From IMG/VR virus record IMGVR_UViG_2526164662_000049: a stretch of 44,479 nucleotides of DNA; one strand, given 5' to 3'. The notes below the pieces were generated by a model. The model saw nothing but the letters and a program-made list of their open reading frames with translations, was not told the origin of the DNA and made no database searches. Shown one piece after another: positions 26,720 to 44,137 of the stretch. Position 1 is the stretch's first letter, and each line of letters begins with the position of its first letter. Source of the DNA: a virus. Taxonomy: Duplodnaviria > Heunggongvirae > Uroviricota > Caudoviricetes. A program made the position numbers and the translations under genes.

Positions 26720-27331
26720 TTAAAGCTGCATCAGCCTTTCCACCAGTTTATCTCTGCGAACAACAAACCAACCATTGGCTCTCGCCAGTTCCAGCCATGA
26801 CTCAAGGGAAATAACAATATCATCATCCCGCAACTGAATTGTGGAAACAGTGACACCGCCTCGCTGATAACAGAGAACTCGCGTGTCGTAACTTTTCTGG
26901 CATGAAACTGGCGCTGACGGATCCTTTTGTCTGAAATAGCAGTCTTCCAGTCTTTCGAACACATCCCACGCCTGATCGGTTTCGAGCATTTTGGCATGAC
27001 GGCCTGCTCCGCGTTCTGTCCAGAGTATGAGGGAGCGGGCTTTCGGGGAAATTTGTAACCCTCTTAAAGATGGTTGCAAATTTTGTGAGTTACTTAAAGT
27101 AACCCGCAAATTTTGTGAGTAGTTTAAAGCTACCCGCAATTCTTTAAGGTCATTACCAACAACTTTGAAAAAGTGTTTCCCTTCAACGAAGCGTACTTTG
27201 TTCTCATGATGATTCTGGCGAATACGCACCGGCTCAGTGCCGTAAAGCTGCGCCAAAAGTTCGGTGGTAATAACAGGAATCTGGTTATGGGTGATCGGGG
27301 AGAGAGTTTCAACAGAAATTTGAGTTGTCAT
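26720..27331 (-). CDS. ORF6N/KilA-N-like DNA-binding domain protein (antirepressor-like)
   Basis: 203 aa; N-terminal ITTELLAQLYGTEPVRIRQNHHENKVRFVEGKHFFKV resembles ORF6N domain; contains internal tandem repeats. Confidence 0.55.
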   Translation of the reverse strand: MTTQISVETLSPITHNQIPVITTELLAQLYGTEPVRIRQNHHENKVRFVEGKHFFKVVGNDLKELRVALNYSQNLRVTLSNSQNLQPSLRGLQISPKARSLILWTERGAGRHAKMLETDQAWDVFERLEDCYFRQKDPSAPVSCQKSYDTRVLCYQRGGVTVSTIQLRDDDIVISLESWLELARANGWFVVRRDKLVERLMQL

Positions 27332-27490
27332 AATGACGCCCTCTGGTGGTTTCTTAATAACTCACCACCGACGACGCCAATCGTCTGGTGGTGAACTGTG
27401 CAGGGTTGGCGTAACCGGGAAACCGACCGGCGCGGATCTCTCCGCCCCCACACAGCCCACCATAATTCAGATGTGCGCGTGCATACGACA

Positions 27491-27514
27491 ATAAAAAACA
27501 CGCTCGCGGCGTGT
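27491..27514 (-). terminator. tR'-like terminator downstream of late promoter
   Basis: minus-strand hairpin acacgc-cgcga-gcgtgt followed by TTTTTTATTG. Confidence 0.45.
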
Positions 27515-27575
27515 ATCTGTCGCGGTCTCTATCCAGGACGCCAATCCCGACGCCAGATTTTGCTGGCGCGTGAGG

Positions 27576-27605
27576 AATATAGCCCCGGATAACAGATTGA
27601 GTCAA
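27576..27605 (-). promoter_or_regulatory. late promoter pR'-like (TTGACT-N18-TATATT) immediately after Q
   Basis: sigma70-like elements read on minus strand directly downstream of Q stop, as in lambdoid phages. Confidence 0.45.
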
Positions 27606-28156
27606 CAGACGGTTTTTAGATCCCCGGAAGAGAATGCATCACGCATCGGCAGATAGAGCATAAACTCTGCCATTTTCAACCACGCATCTATGCGATTACG
27701 GCACGTGGCGTAACACCACTCAGGGTGTGAATCATTCAGCAATTCAGCCATTTTTCGCTTAGTCATCCCCCGCCCTTCATATCGTTGCCGGAGGATACAA
27801 ATCAATCCTGGGTGTTCTGCCAGCACTTCACTAATCACCCGATCAATACATAACGCCTCTGCATCAGTACAATGCACCAGCCAGCTTTTTTGCTTGCCGT
27901 TGATCATATCCCGCAAAAAAGCCTCAAGTTCAGGTTTGTCCAGACCTGCTTTTTTCATCCTCCGGAGCGCCTCGTTAATTGCCGTTTTTGTCAGCTTTTT
28001 AGAGGTCAGCAACTGGTTGAACATATTTCCCGTCTTACCGCCGCCAATATACGACCAGCGCCCCCACATGCGCAGTTTTCCCTGAATCCAGACACTTTCC
28101 AGCGTGGTGAGACGAAGGTGTTCCCCGCTTTTGCCTGTATTTGTTGGGTAAATCAT
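27602..28156 (-). CDS. late antiterminator Q
   Basis: about 184 aa from MIYPTNTG; Cys-rich C-terminus; sits between nin-like genes and pR'/lysis genes; ATGA coupling to upstream gene. Confidence 0.7.
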   Translation of the reverse strand: MIYPTNTGKSGEHLRLTTLESVWIQGKLRMWGRWSYIGGGKTGNMFNQLLTSKKLTKTAINEALRRMKKAGLDKPELEAFLRDMINGKQKSWLVHCTDAEALCIDRVISEVLAEHPGLICILRQRYEGRGMTKRKMAELLNDSHPEWCYATCRNRIDAWLKMAEFMLYLPMRDAFSSGDLKTVC

Positions 28157-28443
28157 AAATAACCTTCCTTTCTCCAGATTTCTTGTGTGCGAAAAACACC
28201 TTCTGCATGCATCAGGCGTAATTCTTCTTTGGTGTAATCGCTGGTTTTTACCCGCCCGTCGATTAAATCGTGGCATGAGCTACAGGCAATCGCTGCCTGC
28301 ATATCGTGTGGTTTTGTCGCTGTTCCGCACGTCCCCGCCAGCCTGTAATGCGCCAGCACAGAAGTTTCGGGATTGTGATTGCAGTAGCCAGGAATTCTGA
28401 CGGTGCACATCTGCCCCCGCGCCGCTTTACGTAAATCCACCAT
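28153..28443 (-). CDS. DUF1364-like phage protein (YbcO-like, Cys-rich)
   Basis: 96 aa with CxxC...CxxC pattern; conserved position before Q. Confidence 0.55.
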   Translation of the reverse strand: MVDLRKAARGQMCTVRIPGYCNHNPETSVLAHYRLAGTCGTATKPHDMQAAIACSSCHDLIDGRVKTSDYTKEELRLMHAEGVFRTQEIWRKEGYL

Positions 28444-29601: not shown

Positions 29602-29757
29602 TTACTCCTCAGGTTCGTAAGCTGTGAAGACAGCGACCTCCGTCTGGCCGGTTCGGATTCGTACCTCGCAGAGGTCTTTCCTCGTTACCAGTGCCGTCAC
29701 TATGACGGTTAAACAGATGACGATCAGGGCGATTAACATCGCCTTTTGCTGCTTCAT
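29602..29757 (-). CDS. hokD: Hok-family type I toxin (HokD/RelF-like)
   Basis: 51 aa MKQQKAMLIALIVICLTVIVTALVTRKDLCEVRIRTGQTEVAVFTAYEPEE; terminator hairpin downstream at 29513-29535. Confidence 0.8.
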   Translation of the reverse strand: MKQQKAMLIALIVICLTVIVTALVTRKDLCEVRIRTGQTEVAVFTAYEPEE

Positions 29758-30003
29758 AGCCTGCTTCTCCTTGCCTTTCGGCACGTAAGAGGCTAACCTA
29801 CATTTGTGAGACATAGATTGGGCCTCAGATTAATGTTAAGCGTCTTGCAGGACGCGTAATGTTAACTGGGGCTTTTCTCTATCTGCCTTTTGGTGTTCAT
29901 GCCTGAGACAGATAGCCTCAAGCACCCGCAGCAATTCTACTTAACTCTCCTTTTCCCGCAAACCGTTTTTACCCGATATGGGAATTCCCATATCGTAATG
30001 AAT

Positions 30004-30143: not shown

Positions 30144-30227
30144 TTACCCCCACCGACAAATAACATATACTAAAAAAGCGATAGCCATAGCAACGCCTGT
30201 AATTGCAAATGCTTCAGGCCAGTTCAT
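30144..30227 (-). CDS. small hydrophobic peptide (27 aa), ATGA-coupled to upstream gene
   Basis: MNWPEAFAITGVAMAIAFLVYVICRWG; start overlaps stop of DUF551 gene. Confidence 0.25.
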   Translation of the reverse strand: MNWPEAFAITGVAMAIAFLVYVICRWG

Positions 30228-31093
30228 TGGCGCACCTCCTGCGGCGGTTCTGGTAGCGGCATCCAGTGTGACGGTTTCCACGACGCACCAGGAATTATCC
30301 ACCCATCATTAGCGTCAGGATGACCCGGGATGTAAGTCGCCCATTTCATTCGCCAGTCACCTTTCCTGTCAAACTCCACGGCAACAAGAACGGCTGTTTT
30401 GGTATCCGGCATTCGCTCACTACAGCTTATCCAACTATCCGGAGTTACCGGATAGTTGCCCGATAGTGCATTCTGCTCCAGTGATGCTTTTACAAACCAC
30501 GCTGCCTGAACTATAACGCCATGAATCCAGCGCAAATCAGCATCGCGATCTTTCTTTTTCATCTTTTCGCCACTTAAGGCCTTGCTTATGTGGCTGCGTA
30601 CCAGGTCTTCATGTAATTCCTTCGCCTCCTCAATGGTGAAACCACCAGGCAGAAGAGCCGGAGTTACCGGAGAGCTGGTTGACGCTTCCGGGATTTTCCG
30701 AAAATTATTGGTTGACGAATCTTTATTTTCCCGAAAGTTTCCGGACTGAAGCATGGCTTCGCGGCAATCGTTCCAGCCTGTAGCGTATGCAGCCGCTTTG
30801 CTGCTGCCTTCAACTGGCGCATCCTGCCAATACATTTCTTCCGGCACTATCGGCGCTGGAGGGGCGGCAAATAGATATCCGCCAAAGTCAGGAAGCTCTC
30901 TAATGGCCTGTACAAATTTTTGTTTGCCTACGTCAACCCCTAATGGGTAATGAGCTATAATCTTTGCCACCGGCTCTGCTTCCAGCGATGCCAGCGCAAT
31001 CCGTGCCAGTTCCATTTGTTCACCACGGGTAAGCCCGTTTTCAAGCGGATTTTTAATGAACAATTCAATACGTTCTTTGGTAATAGTGGTCAT
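30224..31093 (-). CDS. phage protein with C-terminal DUF551-like domain
   Basis: 289 aa; C-terminal region with W/P-rich ending typical of DUF551 nin-region proteins. Confidence 0.55.
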   Translation of the reverse strand: MTTITKERIELFIKNPLENGLTRGEQMELARIALASLEAEPVAKIIAHYPLGVDVGKQKFVQAIRELPDFGGYLFAAPPAPIVPEEMYWQDAPVEGSSKAAAYATGWNDCREAMLQSGNFRENKDSSTNNFRKIPEASTSSPVTPALLPGGFTIEEAKELHEDLVRSHISKALSGEKMKKKDRDADLRWIHGVIVQAAWFVKASLEQNALSGNYPVTPDSWISCSERMPDTKTAVLVAVEFDRKGDWRMKWATYIPGHPDANDGWIIPGASWKPSHWMPLPEPPQEVRQ

Positions 31094-31162
31094 GTGTTAC
31101 TCCTTAACCCGCAGTGCTTTCAACTGATGAGGGGAACAAAATCTTTTCATCAAACCCTGCAT

Positions 31163-31380
31163 TCATATCATGAACAGCAACACACCAATCCATCGACGAA
31201 CGATTATCAAGAGCCTCCATGATTTCATCCATGCGGCGTAGGTCATACAGGTAAATGCTTTTATCGCCAATGGTGTAAAAGCCAATGGTGTAAAAGCCAA
31301 TTTTTTCGGTGATGGACAGCGATCAAGAACTTCCTGTAATTCGTTTAACCATGCCCGTTCTTTTTTTGTCAAAGTTGCCA
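31163..31380 (-). CDS. small hypothetical protein containing tandem 15 bp repeat
   Basis: start MATLTKKERAW with AAGGA RBS; repeat encodes LAFTPLAFTPL. Confidence 0.3.
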
Positions 31381-31634
31381 TATCAGTTTTCCTTATACGG
31401 ATTAATTTTATTGTGCAGTGTGTTGAACGACGCTCATACAACGTCGTTATACAATTCAGTAACTGGCTCAATTATTTTCCCGATTGCCCAGACTAGGATT
31501 AGAGGGGATATCGGTATCATCAATACGATAAACAGAATGAGAAACAGAAATTCTGTCGTTCTACTCTTTCGCGGATATTCTTTTCTGAATAATGTAGTCC
31601 ATTCATTACCGCCCTTTCGGGCGGCCTCCTGACA

Positions 31635-34793: not shown

Positions 34794-35216
34794 TCAATGC
34801 ACTACGACAGAATCGCCGGGCGACCCACCACCGCTGAAATGTGCTTTCCGGTAAACGGCCTGGACTGCATCATCATGCGCATCAATTGCCGTACTCAACG
34901 CTTCCTGCGCCGCTAGTAATGCACGGCGTTCCAGGGTATCGAAGATGCAGAGTCGGTGACGCAGCTCGCGCGGAAGAATTGCCAGAACCGCAGGGATCAG
35001 TTTCTGAATTTTTTCCCTTTGCGCTTTCGTTTCACCTTTCAACCAACGGTGATAGATATTCTGCTGATTGTTCCAGTCCTTGCCTGGTACAAGGGGCAAT
35101 TCGCCGCCCCCCTGGCGCAGATATTCTTCAGTAATTGCGTTAGCGACCCACGCCTGCCCTTTTTCGGCTGCCAGGGCTAACAACACTGATTCGATGTGCT
35201 CATGCCTGATTTTCAT
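34794..35216 (-). CDS. CII-like / YdaT-like regulator
   Basis: 140 aa ORF immediately downstream of cro-like gene, Rac-like arrangement. Confidence 0.55.
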   Translation of the reverse strand: MKIRHEHIESVLLALAAEKGQAWVANAITEEYLRQGGGELPLVPGKDWNNQQNIYHRWLKGETKAQREKIQKLIPAVLAILPRELRHRLCIFDTLERRALLAAQEALSTAIDAHDDAVQAVYRKAHFSGGGSPGDSVVVH

Positions 35217-35458
35217 GAATCAACCGCTCCTATGCTGTTTTCGCTATGCTTACCGTCTGGGGGGGGGAATACATCGTCAAGTCCACAATGAGCGCCAAGC
35301 CGATTAAGGGTAGAAACAATTTTTCTGCACTCCTCTAGTCCAGGGGTACGAAAATTTGCTTCGTAATTTGCCAGTCGGCTTTGTATCCACCCTAACTGAA
35401 CAGCAAGTTGTCTTTGAGACAGCCCAAGCTGTTTTCGATATGTTGAAATTTTGTTCAT
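35213..35458 (-). CDS. Cro-like HTH regulator (YdaS-like)
   Basis: 81 aa; HTH LGLSQRQLAVQLGWIQSRLANYE; divergent from repressor gene. Confidence 0.65.
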   Translation of the reverse strand: MNKISTYRKQLGLSQRQLAVQLGWIQSRLANYEANFRTPGLEECRKIVSTLNRLGAHCGLDDVFPPPDGKHSENSIGAVDS

Positions 35459-35554: not shown

Positions 35555-35974
35555 ATGGAAAAAGAAAACGAAAAAATTGCCGCTAGTAGGCTCAATGACA
35601 AAATTGCAATGCGTCTTAAAGAGCGCAGGCAGAAGCTTGGTTTATCTCAAGGAAAACTTGCTGAAATCTGCGGATGGACGCAATCGCGTATAGGTAACTA
35701 TGAGGCGGGCAGCAGAAATGTTGGAGTGCATGACGCTGTCGTATTGGGAAAGGCTCTTGGCATATCTCCTCCTGAGCTCCTCTTTGGAGAACAGGAATCT
35801 TCTGAATTGTGGTTAAATGAATCCCAACGAAAACTTCTTGAGTTGTTTAACCAGCTACCGGGCTCAGAACAACAACGAATGATTGAGCTATTTGAAGTCC
35901 GGCTAAAAGAAATCGATGAGTATGTAGAAAAATATTTGAGAGGCAGGCTTAAAGATAATCCCCCACCGGAGTAA
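35555..35974 (+). CDS. prophage repressor, DicA/RacR-type HTH (no S24 peptidase domain)
   Basis: 139 aa; HTH LGLSQGKLAEICGWTQSRIGNYE; followed by terminator. Confidence 0.75.
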   Translation: MEKENEKIAASRLNDKIAMRLKERRQKLGLSQGKLAEICGWTQSRIGNYEAGSRNVGVHDAVVLGKALGISPPELLFGEQESSELWLNESQRKLLELFNQLPGSEQQRMIELFEVRLKEIDEYVEKYLRGRLKDNPPPE

Positions 35975-36433: not shown

Positions 36434-36829
36434 ACCATTTATTGGATTAATTCAATATTCTTGCTGTAGGGGTATAGCCGAGGCCACCAAAGCCCGGAGG
36501 TGGTGAAATAAAACCGGGCACAACACGAAGGCGCATTTCCGGTATCCATAAAGAGTCGGTCTTGTCTGTTAAATTTAAATGGTGGGAGTGCGCCTCCGGT
36601 TGTAAATAACGACATTGCTATGTGTAGTCTTTGGCGGCATCAGTTCTACTCCGTGGCTGCCCTGCCGCCCCTTTTTAAAGTGAATTTTGTGATGCGGTGA
36701 ATGCGGCTAAGCGCACGCGGCACAGTTAAAAGCATCAGTGTTATGGGTGGATTATCCGGCGTTAATTGTTAACTGGTTAACGTCACCTGGAGGCACCAGG
36801 CACCGCATCGACAAAATTCATTTGTAAAA

Positions 36830-37683: not shown

Positions 37684-40600
37684 ATGAGCACCGATAAACA
37701 AGTTTACCCACTGTATTACGAAGCAAAAAATGACAAAGTAAGAAAACGTCTCGGTATTAAAGGCGGTTTTTACTGGGCTGAAGCGAAAAAATTATCCATT
37801 GCCATCTCCCGTGGTGCTGTTGCGATTGACGATGCTGGCTACGATGAAGATGACTTCAAAAAACCTGTTCGCGTCAATTTGCCCGTTGTTGATGACCTCC
37901 CGCCAGAAGGCGTATTTGATACGGAATTCTGCAACCGTTACGAAAAAGGCGGGGAAGATGGCATCACAATGGTATTTATCGCGCCCTCACCCTCTGCGCA
38001 GGGCAAACCAGCCGGCACTGACAACACCAATGTTAATGGCGAAGACATGACGGAGATTGAGGAGAATATGCTACTCCCGATTTCTGGCCAGGAGCTGCCC
38101 ATTCGCTGGCTTGCTCAACACGGCAGCGAAAAACCGGTAACGCACGTTTCACGCGACGAACTCCAGGCATTACACATTGCACGGGCCGAGGAACTACCAG
38201 CTGTTACTGCCCTGGCTGTTTCCCACAAAACCAGCCTGCTCGATCCGCTGGAAATTCGCGATCTCCACAAACTGGTGCGTGATACTGACAGAGTTTTCCC
38301 TAATCCAGGCAATTCAAGCCTGGGGCTGATGACTGCTTTTTTCGAAGCATACATGAACGCAGACTACACCGATCGCGGTCTGCTGACAAAAGAGTGGATG
38401 AAAGAAAATCGTGTTTCACGCATCACGCGCACGGCTTCCTGCGCTAATGCTGGCGGCGGGAACCTCACCGATCGCGGCGAAGGTTTCGTTCACGATCTGA
38501 CGTCACTGGCGCGCGACGTAGCCACTGGCGTACTGGCTCGTTCAATGGACGTGGACATTTATAACCTTCATCCGGCACACGCTAAACGTGTCGAGGAAAT
38601 TATCGCTGAAAATAAACCGCCCTTTTCTGTTTTCCGCGACAAATTCATCACCATGCCTGGCGGGCTGGATTATTCCCGCGCCATCGTGGTTGCGTCCGTA
38701 AAAGAAGCACCAATTGGGATCGAGGTTATCCCCGCACACGTCACTGAATATCTGAACAAAGTACTGACTGAAACTGATCATGCCAACCCTGATCCGGAAA
38801 TCGTGGATATTGCCTGCGGTCGTTCCTCTGCCCCGATGCCGCAGCGTGTAACAGAAGAAGAAAAACAGGATGATGAAGAAAAACTGCAACCATCTTGCGC
38901 AATGGCAGATGAACAGGCAACGGCTGAAACAGTGGAACCGGATGCAACTGAACATCATCAGGACACGCAGCCGCTGGATGCTCAGTCACAGGTAAATTCT
39001 GTTGATGCGAAATATCAGAAACTGCGGGCAGAACTCCATGAAGCCCGGAAAAACATTCCGCCCAAAAATCCTGTCGATGCAGATAAATTACTGGCTGCCT
39101 CTCGCGGAGAATTTGTTGAAGGGATTAGCGACCCGAATGATCCGAAATGGGTTAAGGGGATCCAGACCCGCGACTCCGTGTACCAGAATCAGCCAGAAAC
39201 GGAACAGAACGACCCAAATACGCAACAAAACGAGCCAGAAACGAAACAGCCTGAGCCAGTAGTGCAACAACAGGAAACGGAGAAAGTTTGCACCGCCTGC
39301 GGTAAGGCTGGCGGCGGCAACTGTCCTGACTGTGGCGCGGTGATGGGCGACGCAACGTATCAGAAAACCTTTAATGAAGAAAATCAGAATGAATATCAGG
39401 AAAAAGGTCTGGAGGAAATGGAAGGTGCTGAACATCCGCACAAGGAGAACGCTGGCAGCAATCCGCATTGCGATTGCAGTGATGAAGCTGGTGAAGCGAC
39501 AGCACCTGTAGTAACTGAAATCATGTGGCCGTCATATTTCGAGCCTGGCCGCTATGAAAACCTCCCGAACGAGGTTTATCACTCCGCCAACGGAATAAGC
39601 AGCACAATGCTGAAGGATGCCCGCATCAGCCTGATGTATTACCACGGACGGCACATTGCCGGAACTATTCCGAGCGAGGAAAGTGATGCATTGCTGCGTG
39701 GGCGGATTATTCACAGCTATGTTCTGGAAACGGATAAATTCGCTGATGAGTATGCCATTCCGGTACCGGTTCCTGAATATGTGGTTACTACTTCTAACGA
39801 ACTGATCGCCATCATTAAAAAACACAATGCCAGTCTGCCAGCACCGATGACACCAGAGCAGATGAAAGAGTGGATCGAAAGCTACAACAGCACTCTTATA
39901 CAGCCACTGTCGGTAAGTGCCTGGGCCGAAGAAACAGGCATCCTTTACGGTTCGCTTCCGGAGGAATTCCGGCGTATTCCTGAGGGGGAAAAATACACAG
40001 CATCAGCAATGAAAGCCTGTATTAAAGAATACAACGCAAACCTCCCTCCTCTGTTGAAAACCAGTGGATCACGGGAGCAACTTCTGGAGCAAATTGAAAC
40101 TGTAGATCCAGAACTGGCAAAAAAAGAACGTGCTAAATCTTTGCCTTACAACATCAGTGGCACAAAAGAGCAATTAACCGAAATCGCACGGAAAATTCGC
40201 CCGGAACTGGTGACACTGGAAGACTGGCAAAAACGCCAGCAAGAAGAAAACGCCGGGAAAACGTTTATCAGTCCGGATATGTATGAACAGGCAAAAAATA
40301 TTCACGCTGCACTGCAAAACAATACCGATGCAGCAAGGCTACTCAACCACCCGGATCGCAAATCTGAAATCAGCTATTTCGGGTTTGATGAAGAAACCGG
40401 GCTGGAAATCAGGGTCCGTCCTGATATCGAAATCCGGCTGCCATACGAAAGCATTTGCGCCGACGTGAAGTCAGTCAGCCTCGGTTATGTGCGACAGGAA
40501 CGACTGAAAGATCGCCTGCACCGTGAAATTATTGAGCGTGATTATCACCTCAGCGCAGCAATGTATTGCGATGTGGCAAACCTGGACAAATTTTTCTGGA

Positions 40601-40812
40601 TCTTCGTCAACAAAGATGCTGGCTATCACTGGGTGGCCGTCGTGGAAGCCTCGCAGGAACTCCTGGAACTTGGTCGACAGGAATATCGCCGGACGCTACG
40701 ACAGATAAATGAAGCTCTGGAGACAAACAACTGGCCAGCACCGATTACCGAAAGTTATACCGACGAATTAAACGACTTTGATCTTCGTCGTCTTGAAGCA
40801 CTGAGCATCTGA
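37684..40812 (+). CDS. recE: exodeoxyribonuclease VIII (RecE-like), 1042 aa
   Basis: N-terminal 600 aa closely resemble recalled Rac RecE; C-terminal PD-(D/E)xK-like motifs ([19 protein letters not shown]) in a divergent, longer nuclease domain. Confidence 0.8.
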
Positions 40813-41939: not shown

Positions 41940-42134
41940 ATGCGGTATGAAAAAGTCAAACCATGTCCGTTTTGTGGTTGTCCATCAGTAACGGTGAAAG
42001 CCATTTCAGGATATTACCGCGCAAAGTGTAACGGATGCGAATCCCGAACTGGCTATAGTGGAAGTGAAAAAGAAGCACTCGAAAGATGGAATAAACGAAC
42101 TACTGGAAATAATAATGGAGGTGTTCATGTATAA
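41940..42134 (+). CDS. ralR: Lar/RalR restriction-alleviation protein (type I toxin RalR-like)
   Basis: 64 aa MRYEKVKPCPFCGCPSVTVKAISGYYRAKCNGCESRTGY... Cys4 motif; matches recalled Rac RalR. Confidence 0.7.
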   Translation: MRYEKVKPCPFCGCPSVTVKAISGYYRAKCNGCESRTGYSGSEKEALERWNKRTTGNNNGGVHV

Positions 42135-42315
42135 AATTACTGCCACTATTGAAAAGGAAGGTGGCACTCCTACTAACTGGACAAGGTACTCAAAAACAAA
42201 ATTAACCAAATCAGAATGCGAAAAAATGCTCTCAGGGAAAAAAGAAGCAGGCGTTTCCAGAGAGCAGAAAGTAAAGCTGATAAATTTTAATTGCGAGAAG
42301 CTTCTGTCCTCGTGA
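42127..42315 (+). CDS. ydaC: YdaC-like protein (DUF1187-like)
   Basis: 62 aa MYKITATIEKEGGTPTNWTRY...; start overlaps ralR stop; Rac-like order. Confidence 0.5.
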   Translation: MYKITATIEKEGGTPTNWTRYSKTKLTKSECEKMLSGKKEAGVSREQKVKLINFNCEKLLSS

Positions 42316-42415: not shown

Positions 42416-42703
42416 ATGGCAATGAATCTTGTGACACTCAAAACGTGGGGAAAACTCAGATATCCGGATAACCCACCATCAATATCAACGCTGAGACGAT
42501 GGGCAAGGAATGGAAACATTTATCCTGCACCTGAACTACACGGGAGGAGTTACAGAGTGGTTCCGGAGGCTTTCTATATCAACCCAAATAAGGTTGATAC
42601 CGATATAACACACCATCAGCCTAATGGGCGACAAGGGAGAGACAGTCCGTTACTGGAGAAGTTAAAACATGCAGCGGAAAAAATACGATCCCAATTTGCC
42701 TAA
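42416..42703 (+). CDS. xis: excisionase-like protein
   Basis: 95 aa ORF immediately upstream of and overlapping integrase start. Confidence 0.55.
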   Translation: MAMNLVTLKTWGKLRYPDNPPSISTLRRWARNGNIYPAPELHGRSYRVVPEAFYINPNKVDTDITHHQPNGRQGRDSPLLEKLKHAAEKIRSQFA

Positions 42704-43745
42704 AAACTTAACATATCGAAGGAGGGACAAAGCATATTACTGGCGCAACCCTCTGACGAAAGAAGAATTTACACTAGGTAAAATTTCAAGAAGAGATGCA
42801 GTAGCGCAGGCAATTGAAGCAAATCATTATATATACAAAAACTACTCTCCTGCTGCCTTAATTGAAAAGCTTAAAGGGTTCGACTCATTTACTATGGCAG
42901 ACTGGATTGAACGTTACAAAACGATTCTTATAAGGAGAAAAGTGTCCAGAAATACTTATAAAATTCGGGTAAATCAACTGGAGACAATAAAAGAAAAATT
43001 GGGAGGGATTTTACTGACAGAAATAACAACTCGCCATATTGCCGAGTTTCTTGATTTGTGGATTGAAGGAGGGAAAAACACAATGGCAGGATCAATGCGT
43101 TCTGTGTTGTCTGATATGTTTCGCGAGGCCATTGTTGAAGGACGTATATCTCAAAATCCAGTAACGCCAACAAGAGCACCGAAAATAGTAGTTACAAGAG
43201 AACGACTGAAACTAAAGACATACAACTGCATCAGGGAGGCAGCAGATCAACTTCCGGCATGGTTCCCATTAGCTATGGATTTAGCCCTTGTAACAGGACA
43301 ACGTCGCGAAGACATAACGAATATGCGGTTCAGTGATATTTATGATGATCGTCTCCACATCAGGCAAATTAAGACAGGAATGATGATTGCTATCCCCCTG
43401 TCACTCAGCCTTCCTGTCGCTGGTCTACGGCTTGGTACAGTAGTTGAACGGTGCCGCCTGGTAAGCCGGGGAGATTATCTAATCAGTGCCGGGATTAGAA
43501 AAAACAGCCCTGACGGCAGCATTCACCCGGATGGCCTGACAAAAAAATTTGTCGCAGCCAGAAAATTAACAGGTATCCAGTTCAGTGAAAACCCACCAAC
43601 TTTTCACGAGATCAGAAGTCTGGCTGGACGATTGTACAAAGAAACATGTGGAGAAGAATTTGCCCAGCGCCTACTTGGTCACACATCGGAGAAGACAACA
43701 AAAATGTATCTTGATGAGCGAGAAAAAACGTACTTACTGCTCTGA
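42669..43745 (+). CDS. int: lambda-family tyrosine integrase
   Basis: 358 aa; collinear similarity to lambda Int incl. HELRSL and LLGH..xxxY C-terminal motifs. Confidence 0.85.
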
Positions 43746-43865: not shown

Positions 43866-43900
43866 TAAATACAATTAAAAAAAGACCGAATACGATTCCT
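43866..43900. repeat. attR core region (sdsR 3' terminus reconstituted at prophage junction)
   Basis: aaaaaaagaccgaatacgattcctgtattcggtcc; direct repeat of 1067-1098; partial third copy at 43793-43815. Confidence 0.5.
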
Positions 43901-43979
43901 GTATTCGGTCCAGGGAAATGGCTCTTGGGAGAGAGCCGTGCGCTAAAAGTTGGCATTAATGCAGGCTTAGTTGCCTTGC
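43877..43979 (-). ncRNA. sdsR: SdsR (RyeB) small RNA
   Basis: minus-strand sequence GCAAGGCAACUAAGCCUGCAUUAAUGCC... ending in terminator hairpin plus U-run; matches recalled E. coli SdsR. Confidence 0.8.
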
Positions 43980-44137
43980 CCTTTAAGAATAGATGACGAC
44001 GCCAGGTTTTCCAGTTTGCGTGCAAAATGGTCAATAAAAAGCGTGGTGGTCATCAGCTGAAATGTTAAAAACCGCCCGTTCTGGTGAAAGAACTGAGGCG
44101 GTTTTTTTATTGGAAATCAAAAGGCTATTTTAGGTAA

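What the first reader, a model, noticed from the sequence alone, without database searches (positions are those of the whole stretch)
31269..31300. Tandem duplication of a 15 bp unit inside a small nin-region ORF
ggtgtaaaagccaat occurs twice in tandem (with a partial third), giving LAFTPLAFTPL in the predicted 72 aa protein. It may be a slippage-prone tract or a recent duplication, and it casts doubt on whether this ORF is genuine.
Basis: seen in the sequence. Interest (0 to 1): 0.2.

Follow-up and report, generated by a model that had tools for sequence, protein, structure and literature searches.

The report
Frameshifted prophage gene with 15-bp duplication
The 15-base tandem repeat is real, but it sits in a small conserved prophage gene that has lost one base in the adjacent run of A's, so the "72 aa protein with LAFTPLAFTPL" is an out-of-frame reading of an ordinary pseudogene.

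Summary
The repeat is real. It is 2.4 perfect copies of a 15-bp unit at 31266-31301, on the minus strand, and is far beyond chance.

The repeat lies in a conserved 87-aa gene of lambdoid prophages (PHROG family phrog_1714, function unknown). The family is found across Enterobacterales and always carries one copy of the motif RCPSPKKIGFYTIGD.

Two changes separate the window from the usual form:
- **An in-frame 15-bp duplication.** In the native frame it reads IGFYT-IGFYT-IG. It was seeded by a pre-existing 6-bp repeat (ATTGGC, 15 bp apart). It occurs in only 2 of about 655 complete E. coli genomes that carry the gene, and there the gene is intact at 92 aa.
- **A one-base loss in the adjoining A7 run.** The run is A6 at 31301-31306, and this shifts the reading frame.

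The 72-aa ORF therefore has 27 native residues followed by 45 out-of-frame residues. LAFTPLAFTPL is the wrong-frame reading. The true C-terminus survives as a 42-aa ORF at 31104-31232.

The same A7-to-A6 frameshift recurs in other lineages, where NCBI's PGAP annotation marks the gene "frameshifted". The upstream DUF4014 gene is also broken in this window.

Copy number is not hypervariable, and no 3-copy allele was found. This is ordinary prophage gene decay, or possibly a homopolymer sequencing error. Interest is low.

The parts
31266..31301 (-). Perfect tandem array, 2.4 copies of 15 bp. The gene-sense unit is ATTGGCTTTTACACC: copy 1 at 31301-31287, copy 2 at 31286-31272, partial ATTGGC at 31271-31266. 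In the native frame it encodes IGFYT-IGFYT-IG. In the frame actually open in this window it reads LAFTP-LAFTP-LA.
31301..31306 (-). Homopolymer A6 (T6 on the + strand), one base shorter than the A7 of every intact relative. This is the frameshift site, directly 5' of the repeat and sharing its first base with it.
31104..31381 (-). Frameshifted pseudogene (278 nt) of the phrog_1714 family. With the missing A restored it is a 279-nt, 92-aa gene with the same sequence over its length as WP_000224234.1 of E. coli CD45.
31163..31381 (-). Residues 1-27 are native (MATLTKKERAWLNELQEVLDRCPSPKK). Residues 28-72 are out of frame.
   Evidence: The PHROG profile matches only residues 1-31. The exact sequence is absent from the 15-billion-protein collection.
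31104..31232 (-). 42-aa ORF (MDEIMEALDNRSSMDWCVAVHDMNAGFDEKILFPSSVESTAG). This is the stranded native-frame C-terminal part of the gene.
31383..31601 (-). Neighbouring DUF4014 gene, also inactivated in this window. A 1-bp G insertion just after the ATG (about 31600) puts the start out of frame, and TGG to TGA at 31434 introduces a stop. In relatives its stop is 1 nt from the phrog_1714 start (TGAtATG).
30224..31093 (-). Downstream gene (289 aa, C-terminal DUF551 domain). Its start lies 10 nt after the native stop of the pseudogene. It appears intact.

Best explanation
The repeat is a derived, in-frame 15-bp tandem duplication inside a real, conserved small accessory gene of lambdoid prophages. 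The gene belongs to phrog_1714, is normally 87 aa, and has no known function.

The ancestral sequence already holds ATTGGC twice, 15 bp apart (ATTGGC-TTTTACACC-ATTGGC). Slipped-strand mispairing between these two copies during replication would add exactly one 15-bp unit. That mechanism is inferred. A GCTTTTA...TAAAAGC inverted repeat spanning the site may have helped, which is also inferred.

The duplication repeats the family's first beta-strand (IGFYT). It is carried intact, as a 92-aa protein, by a few E. coli prophages. This is shown.

In this window the duplicated allele has also lost one A from the A7 run that abuts the repeat. This is shown. Translation from the correct ATG therefore leaves the native frame after Lys27, reads 45 unrelated residues (LAFTPLAFTPL...) and stops 59 nt before the native stop codon. 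The gene is a pseudogene, and the 72-aa ORF is not a genuine protein.

The adjacent DUF4014 gene is also broken, so this stretch of the prophage is probably decaying under relaxed selection. That is inferred. I put about 70% on the 1-bp loss being a real mutation and about 30% on a homopolymer sequencing error.
For: 1. **Nearest relative.** In alignment A1 the window matches E. coli CD45 at every base of the gene apart from one missing A in the A-run. Both have two 15-bp units. LB858871, O157 PA20 and WP2-W18 have one unit and A7. Against CD45, over 3.2 kb, the only two indels are this one and one in DUF4014. Only 3 mismatches lie between 31433 and 29590.
3. **Profile match.** The repaired protein matches phrog_1714 end to end (1-92 against 1-87/87, E = 4e-50). 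The 72-aa ORF matches only profile positions 1-31.
4. **Family conservation.** There are 134 homologue clusters across Enterobacterales (E. coli, Salmonella, Klebsiella, Enterobacter, Edwardsiella, Tatumella, Pectobacterium, Serratia), with a modal length of 87 aa. RCPSPKKIGFYTIGD is the most conserved block and is single-copy everywhere except one E. coli cluster.
5. **Frequencies.** The gene segment occurs in 655 of 5426 complete E. coli genomes (775 places). The duplication junction occurs in 2 genomes (3 places). The junction is absent from the viral and metagenome contig collections.
6. **The A6 lesion elsewhere.** Four complete genomes, from Egypt, China, Laos and Korea, carry A6 in the single-copy gene on the same prophage backbone, flagged "frameshifted" by PGAP. 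The corresponding 67-aa product exists in 17 variants on several N-terminal haplotypes, including Salmonella. No A8 allele was found.
7. **Structure.** The AlphaFold2 model of the 87-aa form has pLDDT 93.9, with IGFYT forming strand 28-32. In the 92-aa form the second copy takes the strand and the first becomes a low-confidence loop.
8. **Neighbour.** DUF4014 carries a start-proximal insertion and a nonsense mutation.
Against: - The A6 state combined with the duplication is private to this window. No complete E. coli genome has it. Neither the 72-aa product nor its 102-aa TTG-start version is in the 15-billion-protein collection. A private single-base change in a homopolymer is also what a sequencing or assembly error looks like, and no reads are available to decide.
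- The slippage mechanism for the duplication is inferred from the microhomology. It was not observed.
- The function of the gene family is unknown. There is no Pfam, NCBIfam, PADLOC or PDB match and no significant fold match. The consequence of losing the gene therefore cannot be stated.
Confidence: 0.9

Rival explanations
1. The 1-bp loss is a homopolymer sequencing or assembly error. In the real genome the gene is the intact 92-aa duplication allele, as in E. coli CD45. The repeat would still be a real, rare in-frame duplication.
For: The lesion sits in a homopolymer. It is private to this window in combination with the duplication. Apart from that base, the gene matches the intact CD45 allele.
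Against: The same A7-to-A6 change is inherited in four independent complete genomes and occurs on many haplotypes, so it happens biologically. The neighbouring DUF4014 gene has a TGG-to-TGA substitution, which is not a homopolymer-type error. That suggests real decay of this stretch. Other A7, A8 and G9 runs exist in the window, but they were not checked against relatives.
Confidence: 0.28
2. The 72-aa ORF is a genuine small protein with a tandem LAFTP repeat. This is the reading implied by the first-stage gene call.
For: It is an open frame with a good ATG and a Shine-Dalgarno sequence.
Against: The start and ribosome-binding site belong to the conserved 87-aa gene. Only residues 1-31 match the family profile. 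The remainder is the -1 frame of a conserved coding sequence. The exact product is absent from 15 billion proteins. Similar out-of-frame tails (...AWMKSWRLLIIVRRWIGVLLFMI) appear only in scattered frameshifted alleles, with the frameshift at different positions (P0107, P0117, P0119).
Confidence: 0.02
3. The tract is a contingency (phase-variation) locus. Either the 15-bp unit number or the A-run length switches the gene on and off at high frequency.
For: A perfect tandem repeat lies next to an A7 run. The A7-to-A6 change recurs on several haplotypes.
Against: The 15-bp unit changes length in frame, so it cannot switch expression. Its copy number is 1 in about 772 of 775 places and 2 in 3 places, and it is never 3. 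A6 occurs in only 4 of 655 genomes. A8 occurs in none. A7 is short for a bacterial phase-variation tract (general knowledge). The four A6 genomes share one prophage backbone that also carries other pseudogenes, which points to inheritance and decay rather than switching.
Confidence: 0.05
4. The A6 allele is partly rescued by -1 ribosomal frameshifting or by transcriptional slippage on the A-run. A -1 slip after CCG AAA AAA would read ATT GGC ... and restore exactly the native 92-aa protein.
For: A -1 slip at AAA AAA gives the native sequence (direct reading). Lys-tRNA on A-runs is known to be slippery in E. coli, as in dnaX and IS1 (general knowledge). A predicted hairpin starts 3 nt after the run, with dG = -21.2 kcal/mol for the 98-nt stretch and z = -2.2.
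Against: G AAA AAA is not a canonical X XXY YYZ heptamer. The 3-nt spacer is shorter than the usual 5-9 nt. No Shine-Dalgarno-like stimulator lies upstream. All intact relatives are simply in frame, so the arrangement is not conserved. A6 is below the length at which RNA polymerase slippage is appreciable (general knowledge). 5 of 200 shuffles fold as well as the native stretch.
Confidence: 0.03

Closest known systems
phrog_1714 / RefSeq WP_000224233.1 (87 aa) and WP_000224234.1 (92 aa), hypothetical proteins of lambdoid prophages of Enterobacterales
   Same: The gene has the same start, the same neighbours (DUF4014 upstream, DUF551 downstream) and the same sequence. With one A restored, the window gene has the same sequence as WP_000224234.1, duplication included.
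   Different: The window copy lacks one A and is out of frame after residue 27. It cannot make the conserved beta1-beta2-alpha2-alpha3-beta3 part of the protein.
Frameshifted single-copy alleles of the same gene in E. coli CFSAN061770, EC31, EF5-18-41 and A3176 (263-nt pseudogenes; 67-aa product such as ESD81538.1)
   Same: They carry the identical lesion (A7 to A6) at the identical site, with the same out-of-frame tail ending ...RRWIGVLLFMI.
   Different: Those alleles have one 15-bp unit. The window has two, so the frameshift arose on a different allele.
Microhomology-mediated tandem duplication by replication slippage (textbook mutational mechanism)
   Same: The copies are perfect and head to tail. 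The ancestral sequence has a 6-bp direct repeat (ATTGGC) exactly one unit length apart. Outgroups are single-copy.
   Different: Nothing differs in kind. The event itself is inferred, not observed.

Membership tests
phrog_1714 (conserved 87-aa prophage protein family) | Full-length match to the family profile | tested here: not met
   The ORF as it stands (72 aa) matches only profile positions 1-31 (E = 4.9e-13). The sequence with one A restored matches 1-87/87 (E = 4.1e-50). The locus is therefore a pseudogene of the family, not an intact member.
phrog_1714 (conserved 87-aa prophage protein family) | Conserved motifs RCPSPKKIGFYTIGD and C-terminal FPSxVESTAG in one reading frame | tested here: not met
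   Both motifs are encoded, but in two different frames that meet at the A6 run. Invariant and near-invariant columns are listed.
phrog_1714 (conserved 87-aa prophage protein family) | Same genomic position as family members (after DUF4014, before the DUF551 gene, in the nin-equivalent region) | tested here: met
Slippage-type tandem duplication | Perfect head-to-tail copies, flanking microhomology in the single-copy ancestor, and single-copy outgroups | tested here: met
   100% identical copies. ATTGGC lies 15 bp apart in single-copy relatives. Every one of the 66 full-length homologues aligned is single-copy.
Phase-variable simple-sequence contingency locus | Frequent copy-number or tract-length polymorphism among close relatives, in both directions | tested here: not met
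   2 copies in 3 of 775 places and no 3-copy allele. A6 in 4 of 655 genomes and A8 in none.
Phase-variable simple-sequence contingency locus | Within-population heterogeneity at read level | not testable with these tools
   No reads are available.
Programmed -1 ribosomal frameshift site | Canonical slippery heptamer X XXY YYZ in the zero frame | tested here: not met
   The sequence is CCG AAA AAA TTG. The heptamer G AAA AAA re-pairs fully only in the A site.
Programmed -1 ribosomal frameshift site | Downstream stimulatory structure at 5-9 nt | tested here: inconclusive
   A hairpin is predicted starting 3 nt after the run, with z = -2.2. 5 of 200 shuffles fold as well.
Programmed -1 ribosomal frameshift site | Two-frame arrangement conserved in relatives | tested here: not met
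   Relatives are in a single frame with A7.

The most novel reading that the evidence does not exclude
The A7 run at the most conserved motif of this prophage gene could be a recurrent off-switch. On this reading, lineages repeatedly silence the gene by A7-to-A6 contraction, and low-level -1 slippage on the A6 run gives leaky full-length protein. The gene, perhaps together with the translationally coupled DUF4014 membrane protein that is also dead here, would then be conditionally costly to the lysogen.
Probability: 0.05. Interest if true: 0.3.

Novelty: already known. Interest (0 to 1): 0.07.

Why it matters
It matters mainly for annotation. The 72-aa ORF should not be called as a protein. 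The locus should be annotated as a frameshifted pseudogene of a conserved 87-aa prophage gene, as PGAP already does for single-copy alleles with the same lesion.

It is also a small textbook example of two slippage events side by side: a microhomology-seeded 15-bp duplication and a homopolymer contraction.

The gene family itself is widespread, folds with high predicted confidence and has no detectable relative of known structure or function. That makes the family mildly more interesting than the repeat, but the repeat tells us nothing new about it.

Tried and rejected
- **More duplication alleles.** An exact junction scan of the IMG/VR viral contigs and the JGI metagenome contigs gave 0 hits each.
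- **A 3-copy allele or the window's own products in public data.** The 72-aa, 102-aa and hypothetical 97-aa sequences are all absent.
- **A near-identical complete genome for the window.** None was found. The best match over 10 kb was 94-98% with partial coverage.
- **The repeat as a regulatory DNA element (iteron or operator).** Rejected without a dedicated test. The second copy is absent from almost all relatives, and the unit occurs nowhere else in the window on either strand.
- **Programmed frameshifting.** Considered and judged unlikely (see rival explanations).

Full report
**1. The observation**

The + strand at 31266-31301 reads GCCAAT GGTGTAAAAGCCAAT GGTGTAAAAGCCAAT. Tandem Repeats Finder gives period 15, 2.4 copies, 100% matches and score 72. 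The unit occurs nowhere else in the window on either strand.

The 21-base exact self-match at offset 15 is the longest in the window for any offset of 10-60. In 200 first-order Markov simulations the longest such run averaged 10.5 and never exceeded 14. The repeat is real and not chance.

The 72-aa ORF is also there, on the minus strand. Its ATG is at 31381, preceded by AAGGAAA, and its stop ends at 31163. The mechanical ORF list shows it as the 102-aa TTG-start ORF 31163..31471. It reads ...DRCPSPKKLAFTPLAFTPLAIKAF...

**2. What the relatives show**

A 391-bp query around the ORF hits 1355 of 5426 complete E. coli genomes, and 581 of them cover nearly its whole length. The best hit, strain CD45, spans 392 bases against the window's 391. 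Most others span 377 or 375.

Alignment A1 explains both differences:
- The common form has one 15-bp unit, inside ...CCG AAA AAA ATT GGC TTT TAC ACC ATT GGC GAT...
- CD45 and the window have two units.
- The window alone has six A's where every other sequence has seven.

The annotated products are:
- 264 nt, 87 aa in the common form (WP_000224233.1, WP_000224216.1).
- 279 nt, 92 aa in CD45 (WP_000224234.1).

The CD45 protein reads MATLTKKERAWLNELQEVLDRCPSPKK-IGFYT-IGFYT-IGDKSIYLYDLRRMDEIMEALDNRSSMDWCVAVHDMNAGFDEKILFPSSVESTAG.

In the window the first 27 residues are the same. The missing A then puts the ribosome in the -1 frame. IGFYTIGFYTIG is read as LAFTPLAFTPLA, followed by an unrelated tail and a stop 59 nt before the native stop codon. 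The native C-terminal half survives as the separate 42-aa ORF at 31104..31232.

Over 3.2 kb (window 32831-29590) the window and CD45 are 98.3% identical. They differ by only two indels: this one and one in the neighbouring gene. Only three substitutions lie between 31433 and 29590.

**3. The gene is genuine; the called ORF is not**

The repaired 92-aa sequence matches PHROG family phrog_1714 from end to end (1-87 of 87 profile positions, E = 4e-50). The 72-aa ORF matches only positions 1-31.

A search of 5.8 billion protein clusters returned 134 homologue clusters. They come from E. coli, Shigella, Salmonella, Klebsiella, Enterobacter, Kluyvera, Edwardsiella, Tatumella, Pectobacterium and Serratia. 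The modal length is 87 aa.

In a 66-sequence alignment, W11, C22, P23, G29, T32, G34, Y41 and G87 are invariant. The block RCPSPKKIGFYTIGD is the best conserved part. All full-length homologues carry IGFYT, or a close variant of it, once.

AlphaFold2 folds the 87-aa form with mean pLDDT 93.9 as alpha1(6-20), beta1(28-32), beta2(37-42), alpha2(43-54), alpha3(61-67), beta3(71-77). The duplicated unit IGFYT is therefore exactly strand beta1.

For the 92-aa allele the model keeps the fold, with mean pLDDT 83.4. The second copy serves as beta1 and the first becomes a low-confidence loop. This is consistent with the intact duplication allele being tolerated, but it is only a prediction.

**4. How common each change is**

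- **Gene segment.** It is present in 655 complete genomes, at 775 places.
- **Intact 92-aa protein.** It is on record from 35 contigs.
- **Other collections.** The junction is absent from the IMG/VR viral contigs and the JGI metagenome contigs.
- **Three copies.** A 3-copy product is absent from the 15-billion-protein collection.

The duplication is thus a rare derived allele, probably of single origin. It is not a hypervariable tract. The alternative it offered, a recent duplication, holds.

**5. The frameshift**

The exact A6 version of the 54-mer occurs in four complete genomes: CFSAN061770, EC31, EF5-18-41 and A3176. They come from Egypt, China, Laos and Korea. All have a single-copy gene on the same prophage backbone, and all are annotated by PGAP as a 263-nt "frameshifted" pseudogene.

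Their 67-aa product and 16 variants of it are on record from well over 100 contigs. These sit on several different N-terminal haplotypes and include Salmonella enterica. No A8 allele exists in the complete genomes.

A7-to-A6 contraction is therefore a recurrent, heritable way of killing this gene.

The combination of duplication plus A6 is private to the window. No complete genome has it. Neither the 72-aa product nor its 102-aa TTG-start version is in the protein collection.

A private homopolymer indel could equally be a sequencing error, and I cannot settle that without reads. Two things weigh toward a real mutation. The lesion recurs elsewhere. The gene immediately upstream (DUF4014, about 31383-31601) is also dead in this window, through a G inserted right after its ATG and a TGG-to-TGA nonsense change at 31434. 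That nonsense change is not a homopolymer-type error. These lesions are also not seen in the complete-genome set.

**6. Mechanism**

- **Shown.** The duplication is a precise, perfect, in-frame addition of one 15-bp unit, and the ancestral sequence has ATTGGC twice, 15 bp apart.
- **Inferred.** Slipped-strand mispairing of the nascent strand between these two hexamers created the second unit.
- **A possible contributor.** The RNA or DNA around the site can form a GCUUUUA...UAAAAGC hairpin, which might favour pausing. The support is weak (z = -2.2).
- **Shown.** One A is lost from the run that shares its last base with the first repeat unit.
- **Inferred.** That loss was a replication slippage contraction.

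The result is a truncated chimeric peptide with no conserved counterpart.

**7. Context**

The window is a Rac/Qin-like lambdoid prophage.

On the + strand it has:
- an integrase at 42669-43745, next to the ryeA/ryeB small RNA genes;
- recE-like and recT genes;
- RalA and DicF RNAs;
- a cI-like repressor at 35555-35974.

On the minus strand the order is:
- a ydaT-like gene;
- replication genes, including a ydaV/IstB-like ATPase;
- DUF1627, DUF977, a 70-aa gene, DUF4014 and the phrog_1714 gene;
- a DUF551 gene and a hok/sok module;
- DUF1367, YbcO and a Q-like DUF1133 antiterminator.

"Nin region" is therefore a fair description. In free phages the same small gene also turns up among the ea genes, for example between EaA and Ea22 in phage vB_EcoS-689R5. 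BLAST boundaries fall at its gene borders, so it behaves as a mobile accessory module.

**8. Function of the family**

**9. Verdict**

The feature is an ordinary pseudogene, or at most an assembly error in an ordinary gene, of a known but uncharacterised prophage family that carries a rare duplication allele already present in public databases. Interest is low.

Noticed in passing
window 31383-31601 (minus strand): The DUF4014 gene directly upstream is also inactivated. In relatives it is translationally coupled to the phrog_1714 gene (TGAtATG). A 1-bp G insertion right after its ATG (about 31600) shifts the start out of frame, and TGG to TGA at 31434 introduces a stop. Both lesions are absent from the relatives examined, and the best full-length match in complete E. 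coli genomes is 95.4%. Two adjacent small genes are dead while the flanking genes stay intact.
   Followed up: partly
window 29752-29927 (minus strand): An Rfam sok antitoxin RNA match (120 bits) marks a hok/sok-type module just downstream of the DUF551 gene. Relatives annotate hokD at the same place.
   Followed up: no
window 27384-27582 (minus strand): Rfam matches to isrK, C4 antisense RNA and the a1/b1 targets of C4 are clustered immediately downstream of the Q-like DUF1133 gene (27602-28276) and upstream of an ORF6N-domain gene.
   Followed up: no
window 42133-42311 (-), 36619-36670 (+), 43873-44017 (+/-): There is a RalA antitoxin sRNA (Rac-type RalR/RalA module) and a DicF sRNA. SraC/RyeA and SdsR/RyeB lie just beyond the integrase gene, so the prophage appears to sit next to the ryeA/ryeB locus.
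   Followed up: no
window 27076-27139 and 39193-39249: Two other imperfect tandem repeats were found. One is 30 bp x 2.1 (85% matches) inside the ORF6N-domain gene 26720-27331. The other is 21 bp x 2.7 (75% matches) inside the recE-like gene 37684-40812.
   Followed up: no
window 35259-35267: A G9 homopolymer lies in the region between the ydaT-like gene (34794-35216, minus) and the cI-like repressor gene (35555-35974, plus). It is the longest homopolymer in the window.
   Followed up: no
phrog_1714 family (proteins P0003-P0120): This is a widespread 87-aa family in Enterobacterales prophages. Its predicted alpha/beta fold has very high confidence (pLDDT 93.9), yet it has no detectable relative of known structure or function. 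C22 is invariant and the DWC cysteine nearly so, and there is a conserved C-terminal FPSxVESTAG. Public data hold many differently frameshifted or truncated versions of this small gene.
   Followed up: partly
L001 (E. coli CD45) 1889-2758, against window 30224-31093: The window has one open 289-aa ORF ending in a DUF551 domain. PGAP annotates the nearly identical DNA of CD45 as two partial pseudogene fragments plus a short 189-nt DUF551 gene. The annotation of this mosaic gene is inconsistent between records.
   Followed up: no
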